Source: a virus. From it: a stretch of DNA of 48,217 bases. Made by a program: the position numbers and the translations under genes. The notes under the pieces are model-generated. The model had not been told where the DNA came from, ran no database searches, and was given only the letters and a program-made list of their open reading frames with translations. The stretch is taken from positions 1 to 48,217 of the IMG/VR virus record IMGVR_UViG_3300036859_000196; one strand, written 5' to 3'. Shown here piece after piece: positions 1 through 48,217 of the stretch (within the stretch, counting starts at the first letter, position 1; each line of letters opens with the position of its first letter).

Positions 1-125
1 TTACTGTGGATTGGGACCGCGACGTGATGGGCTACTCGCCCGACCGCGTCGACGCCCTGGTGTGGGCGATCACCGAACTGATGCTGGCCAACCGCGCCCG
101 CGGCGGCCTTGTGGGGACGTTCTGA
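1..125 (+). CDS. terL: Terminase large subunit, 3' terminal fragment (window-edge copy of 47403..47527)
   Basis: nt 1..127 identical to 47403..47529 and 48091..48217; stop TGA 123-125 overlaps portal ATG 125-127. Confidence 0.6.
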   Translation, partial: TVDWDRDVMGYSPDRVDALVWAITELMLANRARGGLVGTF

Positions 126-21904: not shown

Positions 21905-22483
21905 TCACATAGGTGCGACCGAGCCCCGCCGGCCTTCGGGCTGGCGGTCGGGCGGCGCATCTCCAGGTCGCGGGCGGCCTGCATTCGGCCAATCTGCGGG
22001 ACGATGCCCGGCCAGGTACGCTTCTATGAGCTGGCGCTGCGGCGGCCTGATGCGGCGCTGGCCGGATTCCAGAGCGTAGCCGATTTGCCTGGTTGGCTTG
22101 TACCCGAGCACGCCAGCCATCTGGTCAAGGGTGAGGCCGAGCTGGTGCCGGGCCTGCCGGAAATACTCGCGAGCCTCGATCGCGTCTGCCGCGGCAGCAC
22201 CGTGCAATCCGGTCAGTGCGCGCACCTCCGTCAGCGTGGGTCGATCAAACTTGGACGTGCCTAGCACCACAAGGCCACGCTCGGGGAAGGGCCCCTCGCT
22301 GTCCTGATCCATGGCGCGGTGCGAGCCGTCGGCCATCAGCCGGTAGGACACCACGTCGCTATCTCGGTCATGGATGCTGCAGACGCCTATGCCTCTGACG
22401 GTGCACTCATCGGATGTGATGTAGAGGATTGTGCGGCCGTACCTGTCGAGAACCTGGTGCCAGGCGGTTGCTGACCGTGGCAT
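21905..22483 (-). CDS. XRE-family HTH regulator with N-terminal extension
   Basis: C-terminal GLTLDQMAGVLGY...GQRRIRPPQRQLIEAYLAGHRPADWP; paralogue of 25713..26006. Confidence 0.55.
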   Translation of the reverse strand: MPRSATAWHQVLDRYGRTILYITSDECTVRGIGVCSIHDRDSDVVSYRLMADGSHRAMDQDSEGPFPERGLVVLGTSKFDRPTLTEVRALTGLHGAAAADAIEAREYFRQARHQLGLTLDQMAGVLGYKPTRQIGYALESGQRRIRPPQRQLIEAYLAGHRPADWPNAGRPRPGDAPPDRQPEGRRGSVAPM

Positions 22484-22524
22484 GGTTGGGGTATCCTTCT
22501 TGTGTCGCCGCCCCGCACGGGACG

Positions 22525-22609
22525 GTGTTGGGTTGAAACAGAGTTACTGCCCAAACGGGCTCAGACAGTCTCCGCCCCCATGTGAGGGGTGGGTGTTGGG
22601 TTGAAACTC
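22525..22609. promoter_or_regulatory. Two direct copies of GGTGTTGGGTTGAAAC in the upstream region
   Basis: 16-bp exact repeats at 22525-22540 and 22594-22609, upstream of the minus-strand regulator. Confidence 0.35.
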
Positions 22610-22634
22610 ACTCTGATCACATACTGAGCAAAAC

Positions 22635-22662
22635 CCCAGCCTCGTGGTTGGGGTTTTGTGTT
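22635..22662 (-). terminator. Hairpin with T/U-run downstream of the minus-strand gene
   Basis: AAAACCCCAGCC..GGTTGGGGTTTT inverted repeat just after stop of 22664..23062. Confidence 0.3.
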
Positions 22663-22663
22663 G

Positions 22664-23062
22664 TCAGCGCCGGCCGCCGTGAAGCGCGATCTCGTCGTCG
22701 TGCTCGTCGTCGTAAGAGTTGCGGGCGCGCGGCTTGCGGTAGGCACCCTCGCGCTTCAGGCTCTCCTTGATGTGGCGGGACACCTCGGCTTTGTAGCCGT
22801 CCAGCAGCTCACGTACGCCAGCAAGGTGCTCTGCCGGCACGCCGATGCGGATGCCATCGGTGTACAGCTTGAGATGCGGACCGTCGGCATGTTGCTCGAT
22901 GAGGTCAACGCCGCAGCCGTACCGCCTGCCATTGAGTGTGATGCGCAGATCGTGGCAGGGCACCTTGACGTTATGGTCGATATCCAACTCGCGCTCGGTG
23001 ATGATTTGCAGCGACACATCGGCGCCGCGGGCGGTCTTGAAGCTGATCTGTTGCATCGTCAT
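22664..23062 (-). CDS. Hypothetical protein
   Basis: ATG 23062 with AGAGGGA RBS inside ORF 22664..23146. Confidence 0.5.
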   Translation of the reverse strand: MTMQQISFKTARGADVSLQIITERELDIDHNVKVPCHDLRITLNGRRYGCGVDLIEQHADGPHLKLYTDGIRIGVPAEHLAGVRELLDGYKAEVSRHIKESLKREGAYRKPRARNSYDDEHDDEIALHGGRR

Positions 23063-23218
23063 CGTCCCTCTATGTGTCTCGATGAGCTGACTATCGCTGA
23101 TTTGTGCATGTAACACAAGCGTATTACGTGATGCGCGGCATGTCAAGCCTTAAAGCGTACATTTCCGTTCCTTCGGGCTTGGGTTCGATGGTTCATCGGG
23201 GAATGGGGAATTATATAC

Positions 23219-23247
23219 TTGACGTACTGACCTTGAGCGTCTACATT
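23219..23247 (+). promoter_or_regulatory. Sigma70-like promoter inside the left inverted repeat
   Basis: TTGACG, 17-nt spacer, TACATT upstream of transposase start. Confidence 0.4.
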
Positions 23248-23275
23248 GGCGGTCATGAGATCAGGGGATGCCGCC

Positions 23276-24202
23276 ATGAACCTCACCAATTCGATTTTCC
23301 AGGACGCCGAGAAGGCCCGCGAGTTTCTTGAGGCTCAGCGTTGGCCGGATGGTCCCATTTGCCCCCACTGCGGCGTTATCGCTGACGCCACCAAACTCGC
23401 CGGCAAGAGCACGCGAGCTGGCGTCTACAAGTGCAAGTCTTGCGAGAAGCCTTTCACCGTCACGGTCGGCACCGTATTCGAGCGCTCAAAGATCCCACTC
23501 AACAAGTGGTTGCTGGCGACGTTTCTGCTCACGGCTTCCAAGAAGGGAATGAGCAGCCACCAGATCCACCGTAGTCTGGAGGTTACTTACAAGACCGCTT
23601 GGTTCATGACCCATCGCATCCGCGAGGCCATGCGTGACATCAATGCCGGCCCCATCGGTGGCGAGGGCGGCGACCTGGAGAGCGACGAAACTTACATCGG
23701 CGGCAAGGCCAAGAACGCCCACAAGGGCAAGCCCGAGCCGAAGAAGCATGCCGTGCATGCCCTTGTGGAGCGCGGCGGTCGTGTGCGCGCCACCCATGTC
23801 GCCGACGTGACCGCCAGGACGTTGCGCTCGGTCATGGAGAAGCACGCAGACAAGCGTTCTACGCTTCATACGGACGACGGCCTCACGGGCTTGTCCATTG
23901 GCAAGGACTTCGCCGGCAGCACAACCGTCAACCACAGCGCTGGCGAGTATCACCGCTACAAGGACGGCGCCGGCATCCAATCTGCCGAGAGCTTCTTTGC
24001 GATCCTGAAGCGGCAGGTCTACGGAACGCACCACGCGATCAGCGAGGCGCATCTGCAGCGCTATGTGACGGAAGCCACCTTCAAGTGGAACCACCGCATT
24101 GCGCTGGGCGTGGACGACACCGGCCGCGCCAAGGCTGCTCTCAAGTCCATCGGCGGCAAGCGTTTGACCTATGGGACGATTCGTGGAGCCCAGAACGCCT
24201 AA
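23276..24202 (+). CDS. IS1595-family transposase (ISXO2-like DDE)
   Basis: N-terminal zinc ribbon RWPDGPICPHCG...YKCKSCEKPFTVTVGTVFERSKIPLNKWL then LEVTYKTAWFMTHRIREAM. Confidence 0.85.
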   Translation: MNLTNSIFQDAEKAREFLEAQRWPDGPICPHCGVIADATKLAGKSTRAGVYKCKSCEKPFTVTVGTVFERSKIPLNKWLLATFLLTASKKGMSSHQIHRSLEVTYKTAWFMTHRIREAMRDINAGPIGGEGGDLESDETYIGGKAKNAHKGKPEPKKHAVHALVERGGRVRATHVADVTARTLRSVMEKHADKRSTLHTDDGLTGLSIGKDFAGSTTVNHSAGEYHRYKDGAGIQSAESFFAILKRQVYGTHHAISEAHLQRYVTEATFKWNHRIALGVDDTGRAKAALKSIGGKRLTYGTIRGAQNA

Positions 24203-24500
24203 GCAGAAAGATCGGCGGCGACGCTGCCGATAGTCCCGCTTATCGGCTGCCACCGAATCGTGTCATGAGCCCCATTGCGGCGTTTCTGAGCCAAACGACT
24301 GCGGGAACAATGGGGCTGAGCACGACGGGGATCGTAGCTACACGGACACCTAGATAGGACGCAAAGACAAGCCTTGCGAGGCGGTCTTTGGCGTCCTGCT
24401 CGTCGTGGGCGCGGATCTCGAACTGCCAGACCTTGCCACCGTGGTTGTAGCGGAACAGGTGCGTCTGCATATCGTCAACAACACCAAGAGGTGTGAACAC

Positions 24501-24663
24501 CATGTATGCCGAGATATGGAAGAGCGCGCTGAATGGCCTTTGGTACTGGCACATCCGCAGCGGCAACCATGAGATCGTGAGCCAGAGCGAGGGCTACACG
24601 ACTAAGACTGCAGCTCTCCACGGACTGCGGCTGATCTTCGACGGTCCTGCCTACGACCGCTAA
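24501..24663 (+). CDS. DUF1508 (YegP-like) small protein, IS passenger
   Basis: Hand-translated 53 aa MYAEIWKSALNGLWYWHIRSGNHEIVSQSEGYTTKTAALHGL...; AAGAGG RBS. Confidence 0.5.
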
Positions 24664-24701
24664 CCCAGGAGACAGGAGACCAAGGGGCTCGCTGGCGAGC
24701 A

Positions 24702-24920
24702 TCACCCCTTGGCTCCCTTCCCAGACGAACGGGGGTCGCGCTTCGGCGCGGCCCCTTTCGTTTTCTCTGCTTTATCGACCGGCTTATGCGGTTTGTGAGG
24801 CGTACTGAGCATGCGACGAATCGTGCGCTCAAACTGCTGAGCGTCAATCCCGCCTTTCGCCTCAGTATCTGCCGTACCACGCTTCGGCATCAGACTGTGA
24901 ACCACCTTCAATTTCGACAT
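24702..24920 (-). CDS. Small Lys-rich basic protein, IS passenger
   Basis: Internal Met MSKLKVVHSLMPKRG... of ORF 24702..25118. Confidence 0.3.
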   Translation of the reverse strand: MSKLKVVHSLMPKRGTADTEAKGGIDAQQFERTIRRMLSTPHKPHKPVDKAEKTKGAAPKRDPRSSGKGAKG

Positions 24921-25371
24921 CGATGCGCCCCCAAGAATCTGATGAGTCCAGGGGGGCACGGGGCGTGGGGCCGGCGTAGTGCGGCTGCTGGGCTTCCCAT
25001 CCGGGCGGCCGTGGGTGCAAATCCCACCGGCTCCAGCGCCCCGTGTATCGTCAACCGTTGCATGCAGCTCTGCTGCGTGCAAGCGGGCTATTTGTGCTCT
25101 GACTCGGTAAGCAAGCACTTAACGCCGCATGGCCTCAGTGGTTGCATCGCTCGTCCCCTCGCTTGCCAGCCCGCGCTTCGCGCCGGGCGGTCCCTACCAA
25201 GCTACCGGTTAGTCTCTAGAGCTACCGATGGTGCTTGACTGCCACGATTCGCGGTGGAAGCAAGAGCTTGAAAATTTCACGAATCACTTATTCCGCGAAC
25301 GTGGAATCGATTGGCAACAGTACGTCAAGTATATAATTCCCGGGGAATGGCTGGTGCCGGTACAGGCGGCG

Positions 25372-25701
25372 TCAATCTGCCGCTTGCGCCTCTATGGCGG
25401 CAAGAAAGCCGCCGAGCGCGGAGTATAGTGCGTAGCCGGCGGTCGGGCCTCCCGTAGCGAACCCCAGCCGATTATGGAGCGCACGTAGCCGCTCCAAGGC
25501 GTCTCTCGGGTACTCCGCCTCCCATCCGCCGTTGTAGAATGAGCGGACTGTCCGCACGTCGGTCCTAATGGACTTGCCGGTATAGCTCTGGTCGGGAAAC
25601 CCTGATCCCGTTGGTACCGGCGACACGTGGCTCAGCGTCTCTGTCACTGATGCGCACACGACCATGTAGTCGTGGCGCAGATTGTCGAATGTCGTTATCA
25701 T
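25372..25701 (-). CDS. Hypothetical protein
   Basis: 109-aa ORF directly downstream of HTH gene 25713..26006. Confidence 0.45.
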   Translation of the reverse strand: MITTFDNLRHDYMVVCASVTETLSHVSPVPTGSGFPDQSYTGKSIRTDVRTVRSFYNGGWEAEYPRDALERLRALHNRLGFATGGPTAGYALYSALGGFLAAIEAQAAD

Positions 25702-25712
25702 CGGCCTTTCTC

Positions 25713-26006
25713 CTATCTCTTGGCGGGCAACCTATCCCGCATTTTCTCCATGCACTCGGGGGCCGAAGCCGGCCGCAATGCTTTCGGGGTGCAGACAGCG
25801 AGCAGCTCCGGCCAATCCCCCGGGCGATAGCCGGCGAGGTATGCTGCGACTAGGCGGCGCTGTGCTGGTCTGATCCCACGACGGCCATTCTCCATGTGGT
25901 GTACCTGAGACTTGGCCTGCTCGCCCTCGTATCCCAGCATCATCGCCATCTGCTCAAAAGTAAGGCCCAGATCGCGCCGGGCCCGCTTGAATTCGTCGGG
26001 GGTCAT
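25713..26006 (-). CDS. XRE-family HTH regulator
   Basis: GLTFEQMAMMLGY...ENGRRGIRPAQRRLVAAYLAGYRPGDWP. Confidence 0.6.
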   Translation of the reverse strand: MTPDEFKRARRDLGLTFEQMAMMLGYEGEQAKSQVHHMENGRRGIRPAQRRLVAAYLAGYRPGDWPELLAVCTPKALRPASAPECMEKMRDRLPAKR

Positions 26007-26215
26007 GACTCAGCCGTAGCGGCGGGCCAGCGCGTTGCCCACTCCAGGTCGGGCAAGTCGCCGCTGTCGTCGAGCAGGAACGGCTGCATCGCGATTGTCG
26101 CCCGCGCCTTCACGAGGTCGCAGACGTTGTTGCCGTCGGCAAGCTCGTTGAGCACTTGGCACATGGCGTCTGCCAGTGCCTCAACGTGTGCTTCTGTCGG
26201 TCGCTGCATGCTCAT
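26003..26215 (-). CDS. Hypothetical protein
   Basis: 70-aa ORF, ATGA-coupled to neighbour. Confidence 0.4.
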   Translation of the reverse strand: MSMQRPTEAHVEALADAMCQVLNELADGNNVCDLVKARATIAMQPFLLDDSGDLPDLEWATRWPAATAES

Positions 26216-26265
26216 GGGGCGGGCTCCTTCGTGATGTGGGCGCTGATGATATCAAGGATGGTGGG

Positions 26266-26484
26266 TCATTCCGGCCTCCGAGCACTGGCGATAATGGCGT
26301 CAATCGCCCTGTCAAGCTGGTCGGCGAGATCATCGTTCCGCCCATCCGGGTCGTGCTCGGCCCAAGCAGCTACTGCCGACTCTATCTCACGCTCTACCCG
26401 TCGACGCTCGTCGGCGTCGACAATTGCGGCTACGCGGGCCTTGATTGCTTTCTGGTCGAAGCTGTTCAGATGCGAAATGTCCAT
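26266..26484 (-). CDS. Hypothetical acidic protein
   Basis: 72-aa ORF in minus-strand operon. Confidence 0.4.
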   Translation of the reverse strand: MDISHLNSFDQKAIKARVAAIVDADERRRVEREIESAVAAWAEHDPDGRNDDLADQLDRAIDAIIASARRPE

Positions 26485-26539
26485 TCCGGTTCTCCCTGCA
26501 AAAGAAAAATGGCCGCACCCCGAAGGATGCGGCCCGATC

Positions 26540-26800
26540 TCAGTGTGAGAAGCCCGTCTCCCAGCACCGGGAGCCGTCGCCGCGGGTCACATACTCGCCG
26601 CACTCGGGGCATCCGTAGCGGCGGCCCTTGCGGGCATTGCCGCTGGAGTGACTGTGATCCTCGCTGATCGAAACCAGGCTGAGGTCCACCCAGAATTCCT
26701 TGCTCCCGTCCCAGAATTGGAGCTTGGCCTTCTCCCCGAACTTGGTCTTGCCCGACCAAGCCAGCTTGTACTTGCGACCCTTGTAAGTAGCGACTTGCAT
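26540..26800 (-). CDS. Hypothetical protein with C-terminal zinc-ribbon-like CPEC...C motif
   Basis: 86-aa ORF, lower GC. Confidence 0.4.
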   Translation of the reverse strand: MQVATYKGRKYKLAWSGKTKFGEKAKLQFWDGSKEFWVDLSLVSISEDHSHSSGNARKGRRYGCPECGEYVTRGDGSRCWETGFSH

Positions 26801-26894
26801 TTTTGAACCCCTAGGAAGGAGCGGCTGACAATGATCAATATACTTTCGCGGTCACAGAAAGCCAAGGACGACGAACGGAGGGGCGCCGATCACA

Positions 26895-26921
26895 TTGTTG
26901 TGACTTCTGAAGTCACAACAA
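26895..26921. promoter_or_regulatory. Perfect 27-bp palindrome (13-bp arms), operator candidate
   Basis: TTGTTGTGACTTC-T-GAAGTCACAACAA about 20 bp upstream of the RHH gene. Confidence 0.5.
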
Positions 26922-26941
26922 ATCAGCGACGATTTGCAGCG

Positions 26942-27145
26942 ATGGCGACGACCACACGAAAGCGCATGGGGCGGCCCCCGAAGCCGCCGGAGGCCCGGAT
27001 GATCGATGTCGGTCTGCGGCTCGATCCTGGGACGCATGCAACGGTCACCGCCATGGCGGTTGAGCGCGGCATTGAGCGGGCTGCGATGATCCGCGAATTG
27101 TTGGCGGAGGCGCTCGCTGCGCGGGCGAAGAGGGATAAGAGATGA
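26942..27145 (+). CDS. Ribbon-helix-helix (CopG-like) DNA-binding protein
   Basis: RKRMGRPPK...LRLDPGTHATVTAMAVERGIERAAMIRELLAEAL. Confidence 0.5.
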   Translation: MATTTRKRMGRPPKPPEARMIDVGLRLDPGTHATVTAMAVERGIERAAMIRELLAEALAARAKRDKR

Positions 27146-27157
27146 CCAGTCGTCGCC

Positions 27158-27405
27158 ACATCCGCGAGGCCATGCGTGACATCAATGCCGGCCCCATCGG
27201 TGGCGAGGGCGGCGACCTGGAACGCACCACGCGATCAGCGAGGCGCATCTGCAGCGCTATGTGACGGAAGCCACCTTCAAGTGGAACCACCGCATCGCGC
27301 TTGGCGTAGACGATACTGCTCGTGCCAAGGCCGCTCTCAAGTCCATTGGCGGCAAGCGCTTGACGTACGGGACAACTCGTGGAGCCCAGAACGCCTAAGC
27401 AGCGG
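27158..27405 (+). pseudogene. Internally deleted remnant of the IS1595 transposase gene
   Basis: Near-identical to 23618-23691 joined to 24035-24207 (343-bp internal deletion); no inverted repeats nearby. Confidence 0.7.
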
Positions 27406-27437
27406 GCGCGCAAACGCGGTCGCCCGCCGTAGCCTAA

Positions 27438-27908
27438 CTATGCTGCCTTCGACTTAGCTGACTCGAAATCCAGCTCCACTTTGTCGCCTTGCCAAAGGAC
27501 GATTGGAACCTTCTTCCCATCCGCCTTCACCTCAATCGCGACAATCCCCAACCTCTCTAGGCTGCGCAGCGTGCGAGTTAGATTTGACAGGGCGCGATCT
27601 GACTTCTCAGCCAACTCAGTCAATGACTGAGGCTGTGAATTTCGGATGATCTCCAGCAACAACATGTTCTTCTCGGTCAACACCTTGAAGAGCGCATCTA
27701 GCGACGACACCCAAACCCTCGGCTCGTGGGCCGACGGCTTCTCCCCGCGCGCGATCCTTATCATTCGCTCCCGAACGTAACTGGGCGGAGCGATGCCAAC
27801 TCGCAAAGTCTTCGTTACTGCCACGGCACGCCCTCGTCCTCGTCCGCCGCGTCGCACTCCAGCCATATGATGTCTCGTGTGATGGTGCCGCTCAGTTCTA
27901 CGCTCCAT
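27438..27908 (-). CDS. Winged-helix DNA-binding protein
   Basis: LLLEIIRNSQPQSLTELAEKSDRALSNLTRTLRSLERLGIV; start codon uncertain. Confidence 0.45.
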   Translation of the reverse strand: MERRTERHHHTRHHMAGVRRGGRGRGRAVAVTKTLRVGIAPPSYVRERMIRIARGEKPSAHEPRVWVSSLDALFKVLTEKNMLLLEIIRNSQPQSLTELAEKSDRALSNLTRTLRSLERLGIVAIEVKADGKKVPIVLWQGDKVELDFESAKSKAA

Positions 27909-28060
27909 ATCGCCATCGCCGGCCTTCTCCTACTCGTCGTCATCCGTGTAGCCAACAGCCTCTGGCGTCATGCGCCGCAGCCAGCCACGGCATCGCGGCG
28001 CTCGCCCCCCTGGAGTTTCTTGCCGATGGTGTCGAGTGTATGATCGGTCATCGCGGGGCC

Positions 28061-28366
28061 TCAATCTCTCGTTTCCAGGAACCCAGCAGCGCCGACAGTC
28101 CACGTGAAACCGCCGCGCCGCATCATCTCCTCGAACCCGACAACCTCCTCCTGTCTGATGGTGAGGTCGCCGCACTTGCCGCCGTTGATCCAGACACCAT
28201 AGGTGGTGTGGCCCGGAGTGTCATGCAGGACGCGGAACGAAGCGCTGCGGATGTCCACTTGCTTGTCGCTCTTCGGCATCGCGGGGGGGCATCCTTCGTG
28301 GTGAATGAGTTCTGCTTCAAGCTTCGCGAACAACGCGTGCGGCTCCAAGCTCAGCACGCGCGCCAT
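28061..28366 (-). CDS. Hypothetical protein
   Basis: High third-position GC in minus frame; overlaps upstream gene by 16 nt. Confidence 0.5.
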   Translation of the reverse strand: MARVLSLEPHALFAKLEAELIHHEGCPPAMPKSDKQVDIRSASFRVLHDTPGHTTYGVWINGGKCGDLTIRQEEVVGFEEMMRRGGFTWTVGAAGFLETRD

Positions 28367-28599
28367 CGCGAACACGTGGCGCAGTCCAAGGCATCGTCCC
28401 TAGGGCAGGCGCACTTGATGTCCCGGTCGGCGATCAGCTTCATCGTTCGGCGCTCCGCTGCGTCGAGCGCGAGGCGCACAAGACGGTCAGCCTTCTCTCG
28501 CCCAAGTTCTTTGGTGCATGAGGCATGCAGACTGGCGAGGTTCTTCGCCATGTGGGACGCCCACTCCTCGCCGGACAGTTTCAGCGGCATTTGGCTCAT
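28351..28599 (-). CDS. Cys-rich small protein (C-terminal CxC...CxxC)
   Basis: ATG 28599 with AAGGA RBS; codon bias drops upstream of this start. Confidence 0.45.
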   Translation of the reverse strand: MSQMPLKLSGEEWASHMAKNLASLHASCTKELGREKADRLVRLALDAAERRTMKLIADRDIKCACPRDDALDCATCSRWRAC

Positions 28600-28795
28600 C
28601 CTTGCGCAGTTGGCGGCGAGCCGCACCGAGGACACGTCGCCGGCTCCGTCACATAGTTTTCGGAGGCGCCAGAAGAGGGGATGATCGACCTGACGCGATA
28701 GTGCAGAGAATGTAGTACGTAATCGCGTGGCTGTCAAGTCGCCTCACGAGCTGACACAGCTTGACTCTTGCCGTCGTGTCTGCTATGTGTCAGTC

Positions 28796-28969
28796 ATGAG
28801 CACCATGGCGCGACTCAAGAAGCTGTTTACGCTCTACCTTGACCCTAAGCTGCTGGCGCGGCTGGAAGCGTGGCTGTCCAGGCAGGACGTGCCACCCAGC
28901 AGGACGGCCGTAGTCGAGGCGGCCCTGCGCGAGTTCCTGGAGAAGCGCGAGAAGGGGCGGAAAGCGTGA
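28796..28969 (+). CDS. Ribbon-helix-helix (CopG/Arc-like) protein
   Basis: MARLKKLFTLYLDPKLLARLEAWL...SRTAVVEAALREFLE; TTGACT-17-TATGTG promoter-like upstream. Confidence 0.55.
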   Translation: MSTMARLKKLFTLYLDPKLLARLEAWLSRQDVPPSRTAVVEAALREFLEKREKGRKA

Positions 28970-29055
28970 GCTGCGTCTACGTGACGGCGTGAACTGACGA
29001 GAAGGAATAGGAGGCCGCGTGTGGCGCAACGCCTTGGCGTGCTATCCGGAACAAC

Positions 29056-29286
29056 GTGACCGCCCAGGATGACACCATGCCGAAATTCGACGCTGAGCGC
29101 TACCGCCAGCCGCACGCTGAGGCGACCCTTGCGAGGGTCATCTGGGGCGATGAGTACGGCCCTCAGCCACTGTCGGCGATGGCATGGTGGGAGCAGCTGC
29201 CGGAGCGCCGCAAGCGCATCATCCGAGCGGCGCTGGATGAGATCGCCGGGCTTCCGCGTGAGCGGAAACCCGGAACGCTAAAATAA
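29056..29286 (+). CDS. Hypothetical protein
   Basis: 76-aa ORF. Confidence 0.3.
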   Translation: MTAQDDTMPKFDAERYRQPHAEATLARVIWGDEYGPQPLSAMAWWEQLPERRKRIIRAALDEIAGLPRERKPGTLK

Positions 29287-29298
29287 GGGCCGCCCACC

Positions 29299-29682
29299 AT
29301 GACCGAACGCAAGCCGATACTATGCTTGGATTTTGACGGCGTGATCCACAGCTATACCAGCGGTTGGCAAGGCGCAGACAAGGTGCCTGATCGGCCGGTG
29401 CCTGGCGCCATTGAGTTTCTGGCTGAGGCCGTGCAGCACTTCCGCGTCGCGATCTTTTCGAGCCGCAGCAACCAGCCCGGCGGCTACGAGGCCATGCGGG
29501 CTTGGCTTGAGCGGAACGCGATGGAGAAGCTGCCCGGAAACTTCGAATGGCTTCACGAGATCGAGTGGCCGCTTGAGAAGCCGCCAGCGCTGGTGACCAT
29601 CGACGACCGCGCCATCACCTTCAACGGTACGTGGCCCACCATCGAAGCCATCAAGGGGTTCAAGCCATGGAACAAGCGATAA
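29299..29682 (+). CDS. HAD-superfamily phosphatase-like protein
   Basis: N-terminal ILCLDFDGVIH (HAD motif I DxDG) and later LVTIDDRA. Confidence 0.55.
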   Translation: MTERKPILCLDFDGVIHSYTSGWQGADKVPDRPVPGAIEFLAEAVQHFRVAIFSSRSNQPGGYEAMRAWLERNAMEKLPGNFEWLHEIEWPLEKPPALVTIDDRAITFNGTWPTIEAIKGFKPWNKR

Positions 29683-29894
29683 GAGAGACAGAAAGCCATC
29701 AGGACATGAAATACCGCCACTGGCTCGCGTTGCTCGGTGTCCTGCTCATCGCGGGGTCGCCGTCGGCGCCGTTGCTGGCCGCGGACTGGCTGCCGGTGGC
29801 TGGTCTGTTCATTGGCGCCGGCGTCCTATGCCTGAGCGGCGCCGCTATCATCACGCCAGACGGACAACCGAGTAGGATGAGGAGGCCATGGTGA
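29667..29894 (+). CDS. Small membrane protein (two hydrophobic segments)
   Basis: ATG 29667 overlaps previous gene end. Confidence 0.4.
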   Translation: MEQAIRETESHQDMKYRHWLALLGVLLIAGSPSAPLLAADWLPVAGLFIGAGVLCLSGAAIITPDGQPSRMRRPW

Positions 29895-30347
29895 TCACGA
29901 TAGACGGGCCGCAAGGTCAAGGTGCTCAGGCTACAACCCGGACGTTGGCGAGTACGTGAAGATGGTTGAGATCGACGGCAAGCGACAGATGGCGGTCGGC
30001 GGTCCAGGCCGCTGACGGCTATGGACTGCGCGAGACCGCACCGAGCCGTTGCGCGAGGCGGCGACCAAGGGAGGGTGTCCTGTGCCAGCCGAGACCAGGG
30101 AACGTGAAGACTGGATTGCACGCAACCATGCGCAGTACATGCTAGTCGCCCTGCGGGACATCGCACGAGGTGGCGATGACGGCAAACCAATCGCCGCGAA
30201 GGCGGCGCAAGACCGCGCCCGCCGCGCACTGAAGAATATTGGGCTAGGTTGGCCCTTTTGGGCAAAGCCGAAGCGATAAAGGAGAAGCAGGATGAGCGAC
30301 GAAGGAAGTCGCCGCCGCGCTGCTGGAACGCAAAGGATGAGGAGGCC

Positions 30348-30578
30348 ATGACGCTGGCCGAGATGGTGGTTGAGGTGCGCACCGGCGTTGAGATGTCGCA
30401 AAAGGCATTCGCCTCAGCACTCGGTTTCTCGCCGCAGTACCTCTGCGACTTGGAGCACGGTCGGCGTCCGGGCTCTGTCGAATTTGTCAACCGCCTTTGT
30501 GATTGGATGGGGCGTGGCCCGAAGGGTCGCAAGGAATGGCACATGGCCGGTGCGCGGTCGCACGGCTGGGAAGTATAG
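30348..30578 (+). CDS. XRE-family HTH regulator
   Basis: MSQKAFASALGFSPQYLCDLEHGRRPGSVEFVNRL. Confidence 0.5.
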   Translation: MTLAEMVVEVRTGVEMSQKAFASALGFSPQYLCDLEHGRRPGSVEFVNRLCDWMGRGPKGRKEWHMAGARSHGWEV

Positions 30579-30590
30579 GATAGGGAGCCA

Positions 30591-30815
30591 ATGAATCCGG
30601 AAGTCCACTGCGCGACCTGCGGGCGCACCAAAGACCCGATGCAACACATGCGTGCCGACCATCCGCCGACTGCGGCGAAAGCGTGGCTAAAGCGCACGTG
30701 CAAACGCGAGGGCAAGCCGTGTGAGTTTGGCTATCGGGCCGGCGTTGACGTAGAAGGCCTGCGCCGGGCTCTGAAGCGCGGGACAACCGAACAGAGCAAG
30801 GATGAGGAGCGCTGA
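30591..30815 (+). CDS. Hypothetical Cys-containing protein
   Basis: 74-aa ORF. Confidence 0.3.
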   Translation: MNPEVHCATCGRTKDPMQHMRADHPPTAAKAWLKRTCKREGKPCEFGYRAGVDVEGLRRALKRGTTEQSKDEER

Positions 30816-30985
30816 CATGCCGCTGTGCGAGCATAGGCAATGGGTCGGTTCCTGCGATAGGTGCCGCATCCGGGATGGCGAACTTGGTGCTCATCGGGCC
30901 GCCTCCGCACCCGGAGCATCGGCAAAGTCGGTACATCTGTCCCGACCAACATCCGCGCGTCGGTTAATCTTTCCCTTGGAAATCA

Positions 30986-31035
30986 TGGCGGTCCCGGCAG
31001 GGCTTGAACCCGCAACCTCCGCGTTCGAAGCGCGG
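30986..31035 (-). other. attP core: 3' ~50-nt fragment of a tRNA-Arg(UCG)-like gene
   Basis: Minus strand reads anticodon stem-loop CCGCG-CTTCGAA-CGCGG, T-arm GCGGG-TTCAAGC-CCTGC, acceptor 3' strand, CCA; no D-arm or 5' acceptor strand. Confidence 0.55.
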
Positions 31036-31120
31036 CCACACGGCGCCACATGTGTGATTTTGCTGGGGTTTTTCGCGCGCATCGTCGTCCAAATCGCCCG
31101 CTCTTCGCATTTCGTTCTCG

Positions 31121-31936
31121 CTAGGTCGGTTCACATGAACCGACCAACGTCCGCGTATCCGAGAAGCGGGGGGGGGCCGCAGGGGTGCTGGCGAGTTCAC
31201 CCACCATCCACTTCGCGGCATCGGCCTTGATCTGCTCGAACACGACGGGGTGCTGGCTCTTGAAGTCCGGCATGCGCGACGACGCCACGTATCCCTGCGC
31301 GGTCGCGTCGAGCCAAATCTGCGTCCAGCGCGCCGCGTCGAGTCCGAGCAGTTTGAAGTCGCGTCGCGTCACGGGTCTCCGCTCCAGAATGGCAACGATC
31401 TTGAGCGCCTTGATCTTCCACGCCGTCAGTTGGACCGGGGCACTATGGCCGGCGCCGCTGTCGGGGACATAGTCAGGGAGGGCGACCCGCTTCACCGGGC
31501 ACCACTCGTGCCAATGTCGGTCATCGCCCCAGCGCTCGGCGACGTGCGGCAGATCGGGTTCGAACCTGCGGCGGTAGACCCGCTCGGACGGTGGCCATAT
31601 CGTTATCACAGTGAGTCCGAGCCAGTTGCAGATCGTGCCGAGCCCGTTCTGCTTTCCTCCTTCTGGCACCAGCACGGCACGACAATCCGGGCCGATCTCG
31701 GCGGCTCCGTACCAACGTTCGGGCAGCGCCTGCACCGCCACCGTGTTGTTGAGGATGAGCTTGGCCTCGATGCCAATCTGGAAGCCGTCTTCCCTGCGAA
31801 CGAGCAGGATGTCCCAGCCGCCAGTCTCGGCATACGCAACCCAGGCGTCACCCTTTGTGACCTGCGTGATGAACTCGGCGCAGAGCGCGACCTCGCTCTC
31901 GAAACCGGGCTTGCGGGATCGCTTCGTGGCCGTCAT
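31121..31936 (-). CDS. Hypothetical protein with PD-(D/E)xK nuclease-like motif
   Basis: Starts at ATG overlapping integrase stop; motif DILLVRREDGFQIGIEAKL; G9 tract encodes PPP near C-terminus. Confidence 0.45.
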   Translation of the reverse strand: MTATKRSRKPGFESEVALCAEFITQVTKGDAWVAYAETGGWDILLVRREDGFQIGIEAKLILNNTVAVQALPERWYGAAEIGPDCRAVLVPEGGKQNGLGTICNWLGLTVITIWPPSERVYRRRFEPDLPHVAERWGDDRHWHEWCPVKRVALPDYVPDSGAGHSAPVQLTAWKIKALKIVAILERRPVTRRDFKLLGLDAARWTQIWLDATAQGYVASSRMPDFKSQHPVVFEQIKADAAKWMVGELASTPAAPPRFSDTRTLVGSCEPT

Positions 31937-33039
31937 TCCCTGCCCCGCTTGTCCTCGATCGCCTTCGGCTCCCGCAGCGACAGCGCATTCGCCGCGCGCT
32001 GCAGGTAGTCCGGGTGGAAGCGCGCATAGACGCGCTCGGTGATCGCCGTGGAAGTGTGGCCCATGTACTGGCTGATCTCCGCCATTGGCAGCCGGGCCTG
32101 GGCCATCCAGACACCGGCGGTGTGGCGGAGCACGTAGGGTGTGACATCGTCGAGCTTGGCGCGGCGTGCGGCAGCCACGATGGCCTGGCGCACGCCCTGG
32201 CGGCCAGTGATGGGAGCCTCGTTGTACTCGATTACCCACTCGGTCTGAGCCATCTCGCGCGCCAGCTTTAGCGTCTCATAGGCCTCCTCATTGAGCGGCA
32301 CGCGAGCGCGGCCCTTGCGGGTGGCATCGCGCTCCGGGTCGTCGAGGTTCACGTGACCGAAGTAGGTGACCCCGCTCTGGGGGTGCGTCCACTTCTTGAG
32401 CGTGACGCGGTCCCATGTGAGCTGCAGGATGTGGCTCGGCCGGCCGGCGGTGGCGAACGCCAGCTGCAGCCACACCTTGACGTGGAACGCCTTGGCGGCG
32501 TCGATCAGTCGGACGGCCTCAGCCTTGGTCAACCACCGCTCACGCGGCCGGGCTGCCGGCGGGCGCTCGATCTCCGGACGGTCGCCTGAATAGAGCTTCT
32601 TCCGCTTGCCAAAGCCGAGCGCCGCAGAGAGATAAACCAGCTCGGACCGGATGCCGCCGTTCGACACCCCATGACCGCGCCGATGCCTGGCATAGGCCCG
32701 GCAGGTGGTGTCCTCGATCTGGTCCGGCATCAGGTGCCCGAAGTGTGATGCCATCGGTTTCCAGGCCTCGCGCATGCGGCGCGCGTCCTTGCCGACCGCC
32801 TCGCGGTCCTTGACGTACAGGTCGTAGATCGAGGCCATGGCAACCGCCTTCCCGTCTTTCCCCTGGCGCTGTGCCTCGGAGAGGCCGCTGTTCCAGCGCG
32901 CTACCTCGCGGTCAGCATCCGGCCGATTGCCCGTTGTCGCTTTGATGCCGAGCGCATGGCGCTGTTTGCTGCGTCCATGCCCCCAGACGACGCACCAGAC
33001 GCCGCGGTGTCGTCCGCGCCTGTAGACTTGATCCCCCAT
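31933..33039 (-). CDS. int: Tyrosine integrase
   Basis: N-terminal RGVWCVVWGHGRSKQRHALG arm-type region; C-terminal VLRHTAGVWMAQA...YMGHTSTAITERVYARF catalytic region. Confidence 0.85.
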   Translation of the reverse strand: MGDQVYRRGRHRGVWCVVWGHGRSKQRHALGIKATTGNRPDADREVARWNSGLSEAQRQGKDGKAVAMASIYDLYVKDREAVGKDARRMREAWKPMASHFGHLMPDQIEDTTCRAYARHRRGHGVSNGGIRSELVYLSAALGFGKRKKLYSGDRPEIERPPAARPRERWLTKAEAVRLIDAAKAFHVKVWLQLAFATAGRPSHILQLTWDRVTLKKWTHPQSGVTYFGHVNLDDPERDATRKGRARVPLNEEAYETLKLAREMAQTEWVIEYNEAPITGRQGVRQAIVAAARRAKLDDVTPYVLRHTAGVWMAQARLPMAEISQYMGHTSTAITERVYARFHPDYLQRAANALSLREPKAIEDKRGRE

Positions 33040-33233
33040 CGCACCAGCAACGCCTCCAGATCCTCGCGCCTCACGCGCACCATGCCGTCGATCCGAACCA
33101 CGGGTAGGCCCGTGCCGGGTTGATCCTTCTCGCGCTCGATCAGCGCGTAGACCTTGCTCTTCGAGCAATCGAGCTCCCGCGCGACGCTGCGGACCGAGAG
33201 AAGACGCGGCGGCAGAACTGCGGTGTCGGTCAT
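32901..33233 (-). CDS. xis: Excisionase / AlpA-like HTH protein
   Basis: LLSVRSVARELDCSKSKVYALIE...LPVVRIDGMVRVRREDLEALL; 3' end overlaps int start. Confidence 0.5.
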   Translation of the reverse strand: MTDTAVLPPRLLSVRSVARELDCSKSKVYALIEREKDQPGTGLPVVRIDGMVRVRREDLEALLVRWGIKSTGADDTAASGASSGGMDAANSAMRSASKRQRAIGRMLTAR

Positions 33234-33451
33234 GGCCCCGCCCTCTCATAGACCCGCGCCAGCTCGGCCCGCGTATAGGCCCCGTCGTAGCGGTCGCTCG
33301 CGGCGTCGACGACCCGGCAGCCCGCCTCGAATTCACGCATCTCGCGGCGGTGCATCCACCACAGCATCGCAAGGCCGCCAGCGAGACCGACGACGCAGCC
33401 GACGAGGCCGCCAAGGGCGCCGACGGCGAGAAGGATCGGATCGAAAGTCAT
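33230..33451 (-). CDS. Small membrane protein
   Basis: Hydrophobic N-terminus ILLAVGALGGLVGCVVGLAGGLAMLWW. Confidence 0.4.
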   Translation of the reverse strand: MTFDPILLAVGALGGLVGCVVGLAGGLAMLWWMHRREMREFEAGCRVVDAASDRYDGAYTRAELARVYERAGP

Positions 33452-33454
33452 GGC

Positions 33455-33706
33455 TCACTCCCCATCCGACTCGATGATCTGCTTCGCGGGGTCGGTCTCA
33501 TCCGCTGACCACATATCGATGAGCCACGGGTGCTCCATAACGGCTTTGCGGATCGCGCCTGGCGTCGTGTTGAATGCGTTGGTTGCCGCCTCGACCGTCG
33601 GCGGCGCGTCCTGCATGTAAACCCAGATGGCGAGCGCCGAGACGAAGCTGTCCCAATGCACGCCCGGCTGGTCGGGGTCGGTCTCGAAGTCGACAAACGG
33701 CGGCAT
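33455..33706 (-). CDS. Hypothetical protein
   Basis: 83-aa ORF in early minus-strand operon. Confidence 0.4.
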   Translation of the reverse strand: MPPFVDFETDPDQPGVHWDSFVSALAIWVYMQDAPPTVEAATNAFNTTPGAIRKAVMEHPWLIDMWSADETDPAKQIIESDGE

Positions 33707-34835: not shown

Positions 34836-35573
34836 CTACTCCTTCGCTGCGGTGGCGGCGTGCTTCATCGCGGCCTCGTACACGCGCAGGGCCTTGATGG
34901 CGTGGTCGGCATCGAGGCGGTGCTGAGAGTTCTTGACGTGGGCGTCCCACGCTTCCTTGAGCTCCACAGCGTCCATGCCAGTCCACTCCTCCTCGATATT
35001 CACGAGATAGCCTTCCTGATCGGCGTAGAGGTCATCAACCGCAATCCGCTCAGCGCCGGGGATGGCATCGACCTCGCTCTCATCGCTGAAGCCGAGTCCG
35101 GAAATGGAGAGTGTGACGCGGCGCTTGGCTTTGGTCGTCGCTTTCATCAAAGCGTTGGCTGCCGCTTCGCCCTCAAGGCCGTCGACACGCACCACGCCGA
35201 TGTCCTCGTCCTGCCGGCCGGTGCCATCGCGGGCGCGGGCCGTGACGATGCACAGGCCGTTCGTCACCTTGCGATCGACAATCTCGATCGACACGCCGTT
35301 GAGCTTTCGCAGTTGGTCGGTGCAATCCTTCAGCGCGTAGAGCGTCAGCTTGCCGTTGAGCTTGATGTAGGCGAACGGCTTGGTGAGCGGGTTGAGACCC
35401 AGCGAGGAGCAGACCTTGCCGTAGTACTCCGTGCGCTGCAGCGGGCTGAGCTGGCCGAGGTCGCCATTGATCATCACGGCTTCCATTGCCTTGCCTACGT
35501 CCTGGCCGGCGGCGGCGAGGGCACGGCTCGAATTGCCGTTGGGGTGGGCGACTGCGGTCGATTGAGCTGCCAT
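34836..35573 (-). CDS. RecT/Red-beta-like single-strand annealing protein
   Basis: LGLNPLTKPFAYIKLNGK...ALMKATTKAKRRVTLSISGLGF; strong GAGGAGG RBS; alternative in-frame start near 35707. Confidence 0.5.
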   Translation of the reverse strand: MAAQSTAVAHPNGNSSRALAAAGQDVGKAMEAVMINGDLGQLSPLQRTEYYGKVCSSLGLNPLTKPFAYIKLNGKLTLYALKDCTDQLRKLNGVSIEIVDRKVTNGLCIVTARARDGTGRQDEDIGVVRVDGLEGEAAANALMKATTKAKRRVTLSISGLGFSDESEVDAIPGAERIAVDDLYADQEGYLVNIEEEWTGMDAVELKEAWDAHVKNSQHRLDADHAIKALRVYEAAMKHAATAAKE

Positions 35574-35778
35574 TGTGGTCCTCCTCAGAAAGCGGGTTCG
35601 TCTTGGTCGTCGGCATAGCTGGGAAGCTGCGGCGCGGCGCAGGTGTCCCATCAGTTCCAGAATGGCCCAACTATCGAATGCCTGCGGCGCTGGCGTCTCA
35701 CTCATGGCTCCCTCCTTCAGGTCAGTGTCTGCGCCGCCTGCTCGCGGCGTTTCTGTTTCGGACCTGTCTTGTACGTTC

Positions 35779-36285
35779 TCATCCCAACCTGACCTGCAAT
35801 GTCTGACCACCGTTGCTCAGTTCGGCGCCTGGGATGGCTTTGCCGTCCTTCAGCGCGGCGAGAACGGCGCGCCTGTCGAGCTTCGGTGTTTGCGTGACCT
35901 TGAAATCGTCAGGGATCGCCGCCTCGTCCGTGATCACCAGCGACGGCGGCACGGCCCGGCACGACACGGTGCCGAGCGGCGTCTCCAGCCGCTGCAGGCC
36001 GCCGACCTCCATGGCCGTGAGTAGAGCGGCACGGATGCGCTCCTCCTGATCCTCCAGCCGCTTGCCGCGCTCACCCAGGACGCTGAGCGTCGCGTTGATC
36101 CCGCTGACCAGCGCGCGGATCTCGACGATGCGCGCCAACGCGTGCCGAATGGCGTCGTGCAAGTCGGTGCTGCCCTCAACCATGTCGCGCTGCAGAATGT
36201 CGTCGTTCTCCAGGTCCAGCGCGAACATGGCCAGAAGCGCGCGCGCCGCATCAATCTGGGTACGCAATTCGCCGGCCGCGCTCAT
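35779..36285 (-). CDS. Hypothetical coiled-coil protein (Gp157-like by position next to recombinase)
   Basis: 168-aa ORF upstream of RecT-like gene. Confidence 0.35.
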   Translation of the reverse strand: MSAAGELRTQIDAARALLAMFALDLENDDILQRDMVEGSTDLHDAIRHALARIVEIRALVSGINATLSVLGERGKRLEDQEERIRAALLTAMEVGGLQRLETPLGTVSCRAVPPSLVITDEAAIPDDFKVTQTPKLDRRAVLAALKDGKAIPGAELSNGGQTLQVRLG

Positions 36286-48044: not shown

Positions 48045-48217
48045 CACCACGTCGGCACCTTCAAGGCGCTCGAAGATCAGCAAACTGACTTTACTGTGGA
48101 TTGGGACCGCGACGTGATGGGCTACTCGCCCGACCGCGTCGACGCCCTGGTGTGGGCGATCACCGAACTGATGCTGGCCAACCGCGCCCGCGGCGGCCTT
48201 GTGGGGACGTTCTGATG
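48045..48217 (+). repeat. 173-bp direct repeat, copy C (terL 3' end remnant)
   Basis: Identical to 47357..47529; continues as window 1..127. Confidence 0.85.

What the first reader, a model, noticed from the sequence alone, without database searches (positions are those of the whole stretch)
31121..31936. Nuclease-like cargo gene between int and attP containing a G9/C9 homopolymer
The gene translationally coupled to int (ATGA overlap) carries a PD-(D/E)xK-like motif (D...EAK in DILLVRREDGFQIGIEAKL). A run of nine G (31168-31176) encodes PPP near its C-terminus. Tracts this long are slippage-prone, so the C-terminus could be phase-variable. The att-proximal position is a typical hotspot for defence or anti-defence cargo.
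Basis: partly seen in the sequence, partly recalled or inferred. Interest (0 to 1): 0.5.

Follow-up and report, generated by a model that had tools for sequence, protein, structure and literature searches.

The report
Phage early nuclease parked beside attP
The gene between the integrase and the attachment site very probably encodes a real DNA-cutting enzyme. It belongs to a widespread, uncharacterised family of phage early-operon genes, so it is not special att-site cargo, and its run of nine G looks incidental rather than a genetic switch.

Summary
The sequence facts hold. A 271-aa gene lies at 31936..31121 on the minus strand. Its ATG overlaps the integrase stop codon (ATGA). It sits about 75 nt from a truncated tRNA that marks the att core, and it carries G9 at 31168-31176. 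The tract encodes Pro-Pro, not PPP.

The nuclease reading is supported:
- AlphaFold gives pLDDT 85, with an N-terminal alpha-beta-beta-beta-alpha-beta core.
- E15, E37, D42 and K59 are at least 98% conserved in 250 relatives. Position 57 is E or Q.
- The C-terminal domain is a winged helix.

The "att cargo" and "phase-variable" readings are not supported:
- The family (PHROG 15779, about 900 clusters at 50% identity, no Pfam model) normally sits inside phage early operons among helicases, primases, DNA methylases and beta-clamps. It is rarely near an integrase.
- A G9 run is expected by chance (37 of 100 shuffles have one). None of 71 relatives has such a tract.
- The tract lies in a disordered, non-conserved tail that overlaps an att-arm repeat. 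Slippage changes only the last 15 residues.

New lead: 26-30% of relatives end in Q-x-x-L-L/F, a beta-clamp-binding-like motif. The window protein lacks it.

The parts
31121..31936 (-). Nuclease-like gene, 271 aa plus stop. Member of PHROG 15779 (function unknown).
   Evidence: phrog_15779, 1.5e-43, aa 6-242; 887 homologues, all named hypothetical.
31598..31936 (-). N-terminal PD-(D/E)xK nuclease domain (aa 1-113). Helix 15-26, strands 32-36, 43-47 and 53-58, helix 64-70, strand 85-91, helix 99-105, strand 109-113.
31760..31894 (-). Codons of the putative catalytic residues: E15 (31892-31894), E37, D42 (31811-31813), E57 and K59 (31760-31762).
   Evidence: Conservation in 250 family members: E15 98%, E37 99%, D42 99%, position 57 E 66% / Q 32%, K59 100%, Q69 100%. 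Their placement on helix 1, strand 2 and strand 3 is seen in the model.
31427..31597 (-). Conserved Pro/Trp-rich linker (aa 114-170), with motifs WHEWCP and LPxYVPDVxAG. It has little regular secondary structure.
31208..31426 (-). C-terminal winged-helix domain (aa 171-243): three helices plus a beta-hairpin wing. R203, W204, W173 and K174 are conserved.
31124..31207 (-). Non-conserved, predicted-disordered tail (aa 244-271). Its composition is not coding-like, and its last ~11 codons overlap an att-arm repeat.
   Evidence: pLDDT about 52. No conservation after W243. GC at codon positions 1/2/3 is 0.61/0.68/0.71 in the tail against 0.65/0.48/0.82 in the core. DNA homology to the closest relative ends near aa 249.
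31168..31176 (+). G9 homopolymer (C9 on the coding strand). It covers the last base of the Ala254 codon, Pro255, Pro256 and the first base of the Arg257 codon.
31933..31936 (-). ATGA overlap of the int stop codon and the gene's start codon.
31933..33039 (-). Tyrosine integrase. Start taken as ATG 33039; an alternative ATG lies at 32838.
   Evidence: Pfam Phage_integrase 1.5e-18. Start candidates.
32901..33233 (-). Excisionase-like HTH_17 gene upstream of int.
   Evidence: PF12728, 6.4e-6.
30989..31047 (-). Truncated tRNA: anticodon arm, T-arm and acceptor 3' strand. By eye the anticodon is UCG (Arg). Putative att core.
   Evidence: Rfam RF00005 at 30.8 bits with the D-arm absent. ARAGORN finds no complete tRNA.
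30922..30957 (+). Copy 1 of a 36-nt direct repeat flanking the att core. Putative arm site.
   Evidence: repeat D1.
31120..31155 (+). Copy 2 of the 36-nt repeat (28 of 36 identical). It contains a perfect 10-bp palindrome (31124-31133 / 31136-31145) and overlaps the gene's last codons and its stop.
   Evidence: D1, I1. RNA fold -22.8 kcal/mol, z -2.68, no U-run follows.

Best explanation
The gene encodes a two-domain DNA enzyme. The N-terminal domain is a metal-dependent PD-(D/E)xK endonuclease with catalytic residues E15, D42, E57 and K59. The C-terminal domain is a winged helix that binds DNA.

The protein belongs to a large, uncharacterised family (PHROG 15779) of early-operon genes in temperate phages of Proteobacteria. 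That family is normally embedded among replication and DNA-modification genes.

In this phage the gene has ended up as the last gene of the leftward early operon. It is translated by coupling to int, so it is made whenever int is made. Its native C-terminal tail has been replaced by read-through into attP-arm DNA.

The most likely job is cutting or processing DNA during phage replication or recombination. This is inferred, not shown. In many relatives the enzyme is probably tethered to the sliding clamp through a C-terminal Q-x-x-L-L/F motif, which this copy lacks.

The G9 tract is an incidental feature of the tail and att-arm DNA, not a functional switch.

Shown here: fold, residue conservation, gene order, family contexts, tract statistics. 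Inferred: catalytic activity, substrate, clamp tethering, and the relocation history.
For: Fold:
- The AF2 model has pLDDT 85.4 and pTM 0.72, with the canonical alpha-beta-beta-beta-alpha-beta order.
- Foldseek against viral structures finds MmcB-like phage proteins.
- 3dnx is DUF1052/PF06319. MmcB is described as a PD-(D/E)xK endonuclease.

Active site: E15, E37, D42, K59 and Q69 are 98-100% conserved, and position 57 is E or Q, in 250 members.

Winged helix.

Family context:
- About 900 clusters at 50% identity, with a constant architecture of about 250 aa.
- Co-directional operons with 4-nt overlaps on both sides.
- Neighbours are DnaB, GcrA, Toprim/DUF7146, N6_N4, C5 and MT-A70 methylases, AAA_25 helicase, Pol III beta, DUF1376 and ParB_N.

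Coupling to int. No promoter-like site was found in 30500-33600.

Tail:
- It is unconserved and disordered.
- Its composition is not coding-like.
- It overlaps the 36-nt att-flanking repeat.
- DNA homology to the closest relative ends at about aa 249.

Clamp-motif lead:
- 26% of 230 family tails end in Q..[LM][LF] or Q..L.L, against 0.7% of shuffled tails and 0.5% of neighbouring proteins.
- 21 of 70 in species-representative genomes do so. F116-like Pseudomonas phages end in AQPTLFT.
- The published consensus is QL(S/D)LF.
- NucS is a precedent for a clamp-activated PD-(D/E)xK nuclease.

Tract.
Against: - No biochemical data exist for any family member, and no Pfam, NCBIfam or PDB sequence match was found.
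- One third of members have Q instead of E at position 57. That is known in some active PD-(D/E)xK enzymes (my own knowledge, for example TnsA), but it could signal altered chemistry.
- No single neighbour is conserved (at most 22 of 71 loci), so the pathway is not pinned down.
- The clamp motif is a short linear motif. Related sequences inflate its count, and the window protein does not have it.
- Neighbour genes were called with a crude ORF picker.
- My integrase HMM missed at least one known int (in L006), so the figure for how rarely int is nearby is approximate.
Confidence: 0.55

Rival explanations
1. First reader's reading. The gene is att-proximal defence or anti-defence cargo: a nuclease that restricts superinfecting phages or plasmids. 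Slippage at the C9 tract makes its C-terminus phase-variable.
For: - It has a nuclease fold.
- It sits between int and att in this phage.
- A 9-nt homopolymer is mechanistically slippage-prone (general knowledge).
- Lar and orphan methylases, which counter restriction, are common neighbours in relatives.
Against: - No PADLOC hit.
- The family normally lies inside early operons and is rarely next to int or att.
- No promoter of its own was found, and the gene is coupled to int.
- Its composition matches its neighbours.
- The tract is within chance expectation, absent in 71 relatives, and outside the conserved fold.
- Slippage only changes the tail.
Confidence: 0.12
2. A restriction-like nuclease that works with phage-encoded DNA methylases. 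It cuts unmodified host or competitor DNA while the phage's own methylated DNA is protected.
For: - 29 of 71 related loci carry a methylase cluster within 6 kb, in several cases directly upstream.
- The winged helix could give sequence specificity.
Against: - More than half of the loci have no methylase nearby.
- The methylases are of four different types, with no fixed partner.
- No methylase was found among the window ORFs scanned.
- Orphan methylases are common in phage early regions anyway (general knowledge).
Confidence: 0.13
3. An accessory factor for integration or excision, in the manner of XisH. It would bind the att arm and steer or assist the integrase, or process att DNA.
For: - It is translationally coupled to int.
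- Its 3' end overlaps an att-flanking repeat.
- In the closest relative, and in at least five other loci, the gene lies within about 350 bp of an int.
Against: - In most related loci no integrase was found within 6 kb. It was absent in all 71 IMG/VR loci with a called family gene by phmmer. The iterative HMM search found integrase-like ORFs in only 14 of the 161 loci fetched by then.
- A conventional HTH_17 excisionase is already present upstream of int.
- Conserved catalytic residues argue for a working nuclease, which a directionality factor does not need.
Confidence: 0.1
4. A catalytically inert DNA-binding regulator that has kept a nuclease-like fold.
For: - A winged-helix domain is present.
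- Q replaces E57 in 32% of members.
- Neighbours include regulators such as GcrA and Trans_reg_C.
Against: E15, E37, D42 and K59 are 98-100% conserved over about 900 clusters. That degree of conservation is hard to explain without catalysis or metal binding.
Confidence: 0.05

Closest known systems
DUF1052 / MmcB family (Pfam PF06319; structure 3DNX, SPO1766)
   Same: - Foldseek against viral models finds phage proteins named MmcB-like.
- It has the PD-(D/E)xK fold and occurs mostly in Alphaproteobacteria.
- MmcB is reported as an endonuclease involved in crosslink repair (PMC9578287).
   Different: - No match to the PF06319 model for the window protein or for 27 relatives, even at E up to 5.
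- The PDB chain is a single domain of 146 residues. This family has an added conserved linker and a winged helix.
- MmcB is a chromosomal SOS gene. This family is encoded in phage early operons.
NucS / EndoMS (2VLD)
   Same: - It is a PD-(D/E)xK nuclease joined to a separate DNA-binding domain.
- NucS is activated and recruited by the sliding clamp (PMC11109965). That parallels the Q-x-x-L-L/F tails of many family members.
   Different: - The domain order is reversed, and the DNA-binding domain is a beta-barrel rather than a winged helix (my own knowledge of NucS).
- No sequence similarity was detected.
- The window protein lacks the terminal motif.
- Mismatch specificity is untested.
XisH-like excision controlling factor (2OKF)
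   Different: The family is usually not next to a recombinase. XisH has no winged-helix domain. There is no detectable sequence relationship.
Simple-sequence contingency (phase-variable) genes
   Same: A 9-nt homopolymer lies inside a coding region.
   Different: The tract lies at the far 3' end, beyond the folded domains. Slippage does not switch the protein off. The tract is not conserved and not over-represented.

Membership tests
PD-(D/E)xK phosphodiesterase superfamily | Core fold alpha-beta-beta-beta-alpha-beta | tested here: met
   [not shown]
PD-(D/E)xK phosphodiesterase superfamily | Acidic residue at the start of strand 2 and (D/E)xK on strand 3, often with a Glu on helix 1 | tested here: met
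   D42 is 99% conserved, position 57 is E 66% / Q 32%, K59 is 100% and E15 is 98% in 250 members. Their positions match the model's elements.
PD-(D/E)xK phosphodiesterase superfamily | Metal-dependent phosphodiester cleavage | not testable with these tools
   Needs biochemistry.
DUF1052 / MmcB (PF06319) | Significant match to the family's profile HMM | tested here: not met
   No Pfam hit at E up to 1 for the window protein. None of 28 members hits PF06319 at E up to 5.
DUF1052 / MmcB (PF06319) | Close structural similarity to 3DNX | tested here: inconclusive
   [not shown]
NucS / EndoMS | N-terminal DNA-binding domain followed by a C-terminal nuclease domain | tested here: not met
   Here the nuclease domain is N-terminal and a winged helix is C-terminal.
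Beta-clamp-binding proteins | QL(S/D)LF-type motif in a flexible terminal region | tested here: not met
   The window tail ...PPRFSDTRTLVGSCEPT has no such motif. The motif is present in 26-30% of relatives. Binding itself is not testable here.
Phase-variable contingency gene | Homopolymer tract in the coding sequence, in excess of chance | tested here: not met
   The tract is present, but 37 of 100 shuffles contain a G9/C9.
Phase-variable contingency gene | A length change switches the protein on/off or alters a functional domain | tested here: not met
   C7/C10 give 267/268 aa and C8/C11 give 295/296 aa. All are identical through residue 256. The conserved fold ends at W243.
Phase-variable contingency gene | Tract length varies between reads or strains | not testable with these tools
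   No other copy of this locus was found. No relative carries a tract.
Moron / att-site cargo | Own promoter or terminator, atypical composition, sporadic presence at the att end | tested here: not met
   - No promoter-like site in the consensus scan.
- GC3 is 0.81 against 0.83 for int.
- Relatives lie inside early operons.
Recombination directionality / XisH-like factor | Consistent co-occurrence with a site-specific recombinase | tested here: not met
   Integrase-like ORFs were found within 6 kb in only 14 of the 161 loci fetched by then, and in none of the 71 IMG/VR loci with a called family gene by phmmer. The sensitivity of this search is limited.
PHROG 15779 | Significant full-length match to the family profile | tested here: met
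   1.5e-43 over aa 6-242 of the protein and positions 3-245 of 253 in the profile. The PHROG has no assigned function.

The most novel reading that the evidence does not exclude
PHROG 15779 is a previously unrecognised class of phage-encoded nucleases tethered to the sliding clamp. The enzyme (PD-(D/E)xK domain, winged helix, flexible linker, C-terminal Q-x-x-L-L/F) would be recruited to host or phage replication forks.

In this phage the gene was transplanted next to attP and lost that tail. The slippery C9 tract in the junction DNA lets the population sample alternative C-termini.
Probability: 0.15. Interest if true: 0.55.

Novelty: new member of a known kind. Interest (0 to 1): 0.3.

Why it matters
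For this window the result is mostly a correction. The gene is a standard early-operon component that sits in an unusual place. The homopolymer should not be read as a switch.

At the family level it gives a first structural and contextual annotation to about 900 clusters of "hypothetical" phage proteins: a nuclease domain, a winged helix, and often a clamp-binding-like tail. Members occur in tractable Pseudomonas phages such as F116 and JBD90.

If the clamp tethering is real, it would add a phage-encoded enzyme to the short list of clamp-directed nucleases. It would also point to a way in which temperate phages act on replication forks.

Tried and rejected
- Megablast of the region against GenBank phages found no match.
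- An exact-protein lookup for the window protein found nothing on record.
- PDB sequence and profile searches gave only noise.
- NCBIfam and PADLOC gave no hits.
- The AFDB Foldseek library was unavailable.
- Pattern searches with the tract's flanks, allowing 6-13 nt between them, found no other copy of the locus in metagenome or viral contigs. Tract-length variation could therefore not be examined.
- A 19-mer from the conserved 3' region returned 120 loci. Only one (L209, identical to P0002) encodes a family member.
- I tried to fetch the "MmcB-like" protein of Acidovorax phage ACP17 for a profile-profile test. The GenBank record does not carry that name, and I dropped the attempt.
- I considered the TLVG / TLFG similarity between the window tail and the tail of P0002 as a relic of the terminal motif. 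DNA homology stops before it, so it may be chance.
- I considered the family as the exonuclease partner of the RecT-like gene. No RecT or Erf cluster recurs next to the family in relatives.

Full report
**Observation**

The gene runs from 31936 to 31124 on the minus strand, with its stop at 31121-31123, and encodes 271 residues. Its ATG overlaps the TGA of the upstream ORF as ATGA. That upstream ORF is a tyrosine integrase (Pfam Phage_integrase, 1.5e-18), and an HTH_17 excisionase-like gene lies upstream of it.

G9 lies exactly at 31168-31176. On the coding strand it reads gcC CCC CCC Cgc, which is Ala-Pro-Pro-Arg. One such run in 48 kb of 65% GC DNA is what chance gives: 0.60 are expected, and 37 of 100 dinucleotide shuffles contain at least one.

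**Setting**

- The window has a 127-bp terminal direct repeat, so it is a complete, circularly assembled phage genome.
- Just beyond the gene, Rfam finds a tRNA lacking its D-arm at 30989-31047 on the minus strand (30.8 bits). ARAGORN finds no full tRNA. This is the usual signature of an attP core that rebuilds a tRNA 3' end.
- A 36-nt direct repeat flanks this core, at 30922-30957 and 31120-31155 (28 of 36 identical). The second copy holds a perfect 10-bp palindrome and overlaps the last ~11 codons and the stop of the gene.
The gene's 3' end in fact runs into the att arm.

**The protein**

- Pfam, NCBIfam, PADLOC and PDB sequence searches give nothing.
- PHROGs places the protein in phrog_15779, function unknown (1.5e-43, residues 6-242).
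- There are 887 homologues at E up to 0.001 in the 90% clusters and 897 clusters at 50% identity. Nearly all are 240-270 aa and are named hypothetical.
- An AlphaFold model built on 28 sequences has pLDDT 85.4 and pTM 0.72. Residues 15-113 form helix-strand-strand-strand-helix-strand-helix-strand. Residues 114-170 are a conserved Pro/Trp-rich linker. Residues 172-243 form three helices plus a beta-hairpin. Residues 245-271 have low confidence (about 52).
- Foldseek against viral models also finds "MmcB-like" phage proteins.
- In 250 family members E15, E37, D42, K59 and Q69 are 98-100% conserved, and position 57 is E (66%) or Q (32%). These residues sit on helix 1, strand 2 and strand 3, as in canonical enzymes.
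- The nuclease reading is therefore well supported at the level of fold and active site. Activity itself is inferred.

**Is it att cargo?**

I looked at seven individual contexts, 80 IMG/VR loci and 73 species-representative genomes.

- In 71 IMG/VR loci where my ORF picker recovered the gene, it lies in co-directional operons. The commonest spacing to both neighbours is a 4-nt overlap.
- The recurrent neighbours, annotated by Pfam, are:
  - DnaB (22 loci)
  - GcrA (19)
  - Toprim/DUF7146 (18)
  - two N6_N4 methylase clusters (found in 11 and 12 loci)
  - AAA_25 helicase (16)
  - C5 methylase (10)
  - MT-A70 (10)
  - Pol III beta clamp (10)
  - DUF1376, ParB_N and Trans_reg_C
- 48 of 71 loci have a replication or methylase cluster within 6 kb. 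No single partner is conserved.
- An integrase was found within 6 kb in only 14 of the 161 loci fetched by then. This search is imperfect, because it missed the int in L006.
- Where int is adjacent (L006/L209, L012, L017, L132, L151) it lies downstream of the gene. The int-then-gene order of the window was not seen elsewhere.
- The gene's codon-position GC matches int: GC3 0.81 against 0.83. No promoter-like site was found.
- The hosts are mainly Hyphomicrobiales, with some Pseudomonas, Xanthomonadaceae and Burkholderiales. Cultured phages with a homologue include F116, JBD90 and phiC725A.
- The lower-GC stretch on the other side of att (about 22-30.8 kb) holds an IS1595 transposase and several small regulators. 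It looks more like cargo.

**Is it phase-variable?**

- The tract lies 10 residues past the last conserved position (W243).
- Changing C9 to C7/C10 or C8/C11 gives proteins of 267/268 or 295/296 aa, identical through residue 256.
- None of 71 relatives has a C or G run of 7 or more in the gene.
- The tail's codon-position GC (0.61/0.68/0.71) is flat compared with the core (0.65/0.48/0.82).
- DNA similarity to the closest relative (64% protein identity) stops at about residue 249.
- The simplest account is that the native tail was lost when the gene came to lie next to attP. The present tail, G9 included, would then be read-through into att-arm DNA. This history is inferred.
- Read-level heterogeneity could not be checked, because no other copy of the locus exists in the searchable collections.

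**A lead from the tails**

After W243 the relatives carry variable, Pro-rich linkers. These often end in Q-[G/E]-x-[L/M]-L or Q-x-x-L-x-L.

- 26% of 230 tails end this way, against 0.7% of shuffled tails and 0.5% of the C-termini of neighbouring proteins.
- 21 of 70 do so in the genome set. F116-like Pseudomonas phages end in AQPTLFT, and Xanthomonadaceae members end in Q-x-V-A-A.
- This resembles the bacterial clamp-binding motif QL(S/D)LF, which usually sits in flexible termini (PMC6511837).
- A clamp-activated PD-(D/E)xK nuclease is already known in NucS (PMC11109965).
- Several of these phages encode their own beta clamp.
- Shared ancestry inflates the counts. The motif is short, and the window protein lacks it. 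This remains a hypothesis about the family.

**Verdict**

The nuclease interpretation is supported. The cargo and phase-variation interpretations are not.

The gene is a new member of a known kind of enzyme, in an uncharacterised but widespread family of phage early genes, displaced here to the int-att junction. The mechanism I commit to is a metal-dependent endonuclease, guided by a winged helix, acting on DNA during phage replication or recombination and co-expressed with int. My confidence is about 0.55 for the general statement, and much lower for any particular substrate.

Noticed in passing
window 30922-30957 and 31120-31155; also 30947-30958, 31013-31024, 31145-31156: A 36-nt direct repeat (28 of 36 identical) flanks the truncated-tRNA att core. 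Each copy has a GTCGG..CCGAC palindrome followed by CAAC[A/G]TCCGCG. A third copy of that 12-mer lies inside the tRNA part, at spacings of 66 and 132 nt. These are probably integrase or accessory-protein binding sites. Together they would make attP about 235 bp long.
   Followed up: partly
window 1-127 and 48091-48217: A 127-bp exact terminal direct repeat. The contig is a circularly assembled, complete phage genome of about 48.1 kb.
   Followed up: yes
relatives P0002-P0269; loci L007, L008, L089-L161: Many family members end in Q-x-x-L-L/F (for example RQGALSL, KQEALL, AQPTLFT) after a variable Pro-rich linker. This is a beta-clamp-binding-like motif and is strongly enriched over shuffled tails and over neighbouring proteins. 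Xanthomonadaceae members end in Q-x-V-A-A instead.
   Followed up: partly
window 32901-33039: The HTH_17 excisionase-like ORF (33233..32901) overlaps the long form of int (ATG 33039) by 139 nt in another frame. If int starts at ATG 32838 instead, there is no overlap, but the arm-binding-like N-terminus would be lost.
   Followed up: no
window 23246-24199, within about 22000-30800: An IS1595-family transposase (DDE_Tnp_IS1595, 1.1e-28) lies in a lower-GC stretch (0.61 against 0.65-0.68). The stretch also holds a MarR/HVO_A0114 winged-helix protein, an RHH protein, an HTH_31 protein and a HAD-like protein. This side of att looks like the accessory or cargo region.
   Followed up: partly
window 31182-31192 and 31247-31257: An exact 11-nt repeat, GGGGTGCTGGC, occurs twice inside the gene, 65 nt apart. 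That is close to the 66-nt spacing of the att-arm 12-mers. It may be chance, or further arm-type sites.
   Followed up: no
window 34836-36285: The leftward operon carries a RecT-like ORF (no significant Pfam hit; recognised by eye only) next to a Sipho_Gp157 gene and a GntR regulator. No partner exonuclease was recognised among the ORFs scanned.
   Followed up: no
window 28283-28289: This is the only other homopolymer of 7 or more in the window (G7).
   Followed up: no
loci L009-L088: Relatives' early operons often encode GcrA-like regulators (19 loci), several kinds of DNA methylase, and their own Pol III beta clamp (10 loci).
   Followed up: partly
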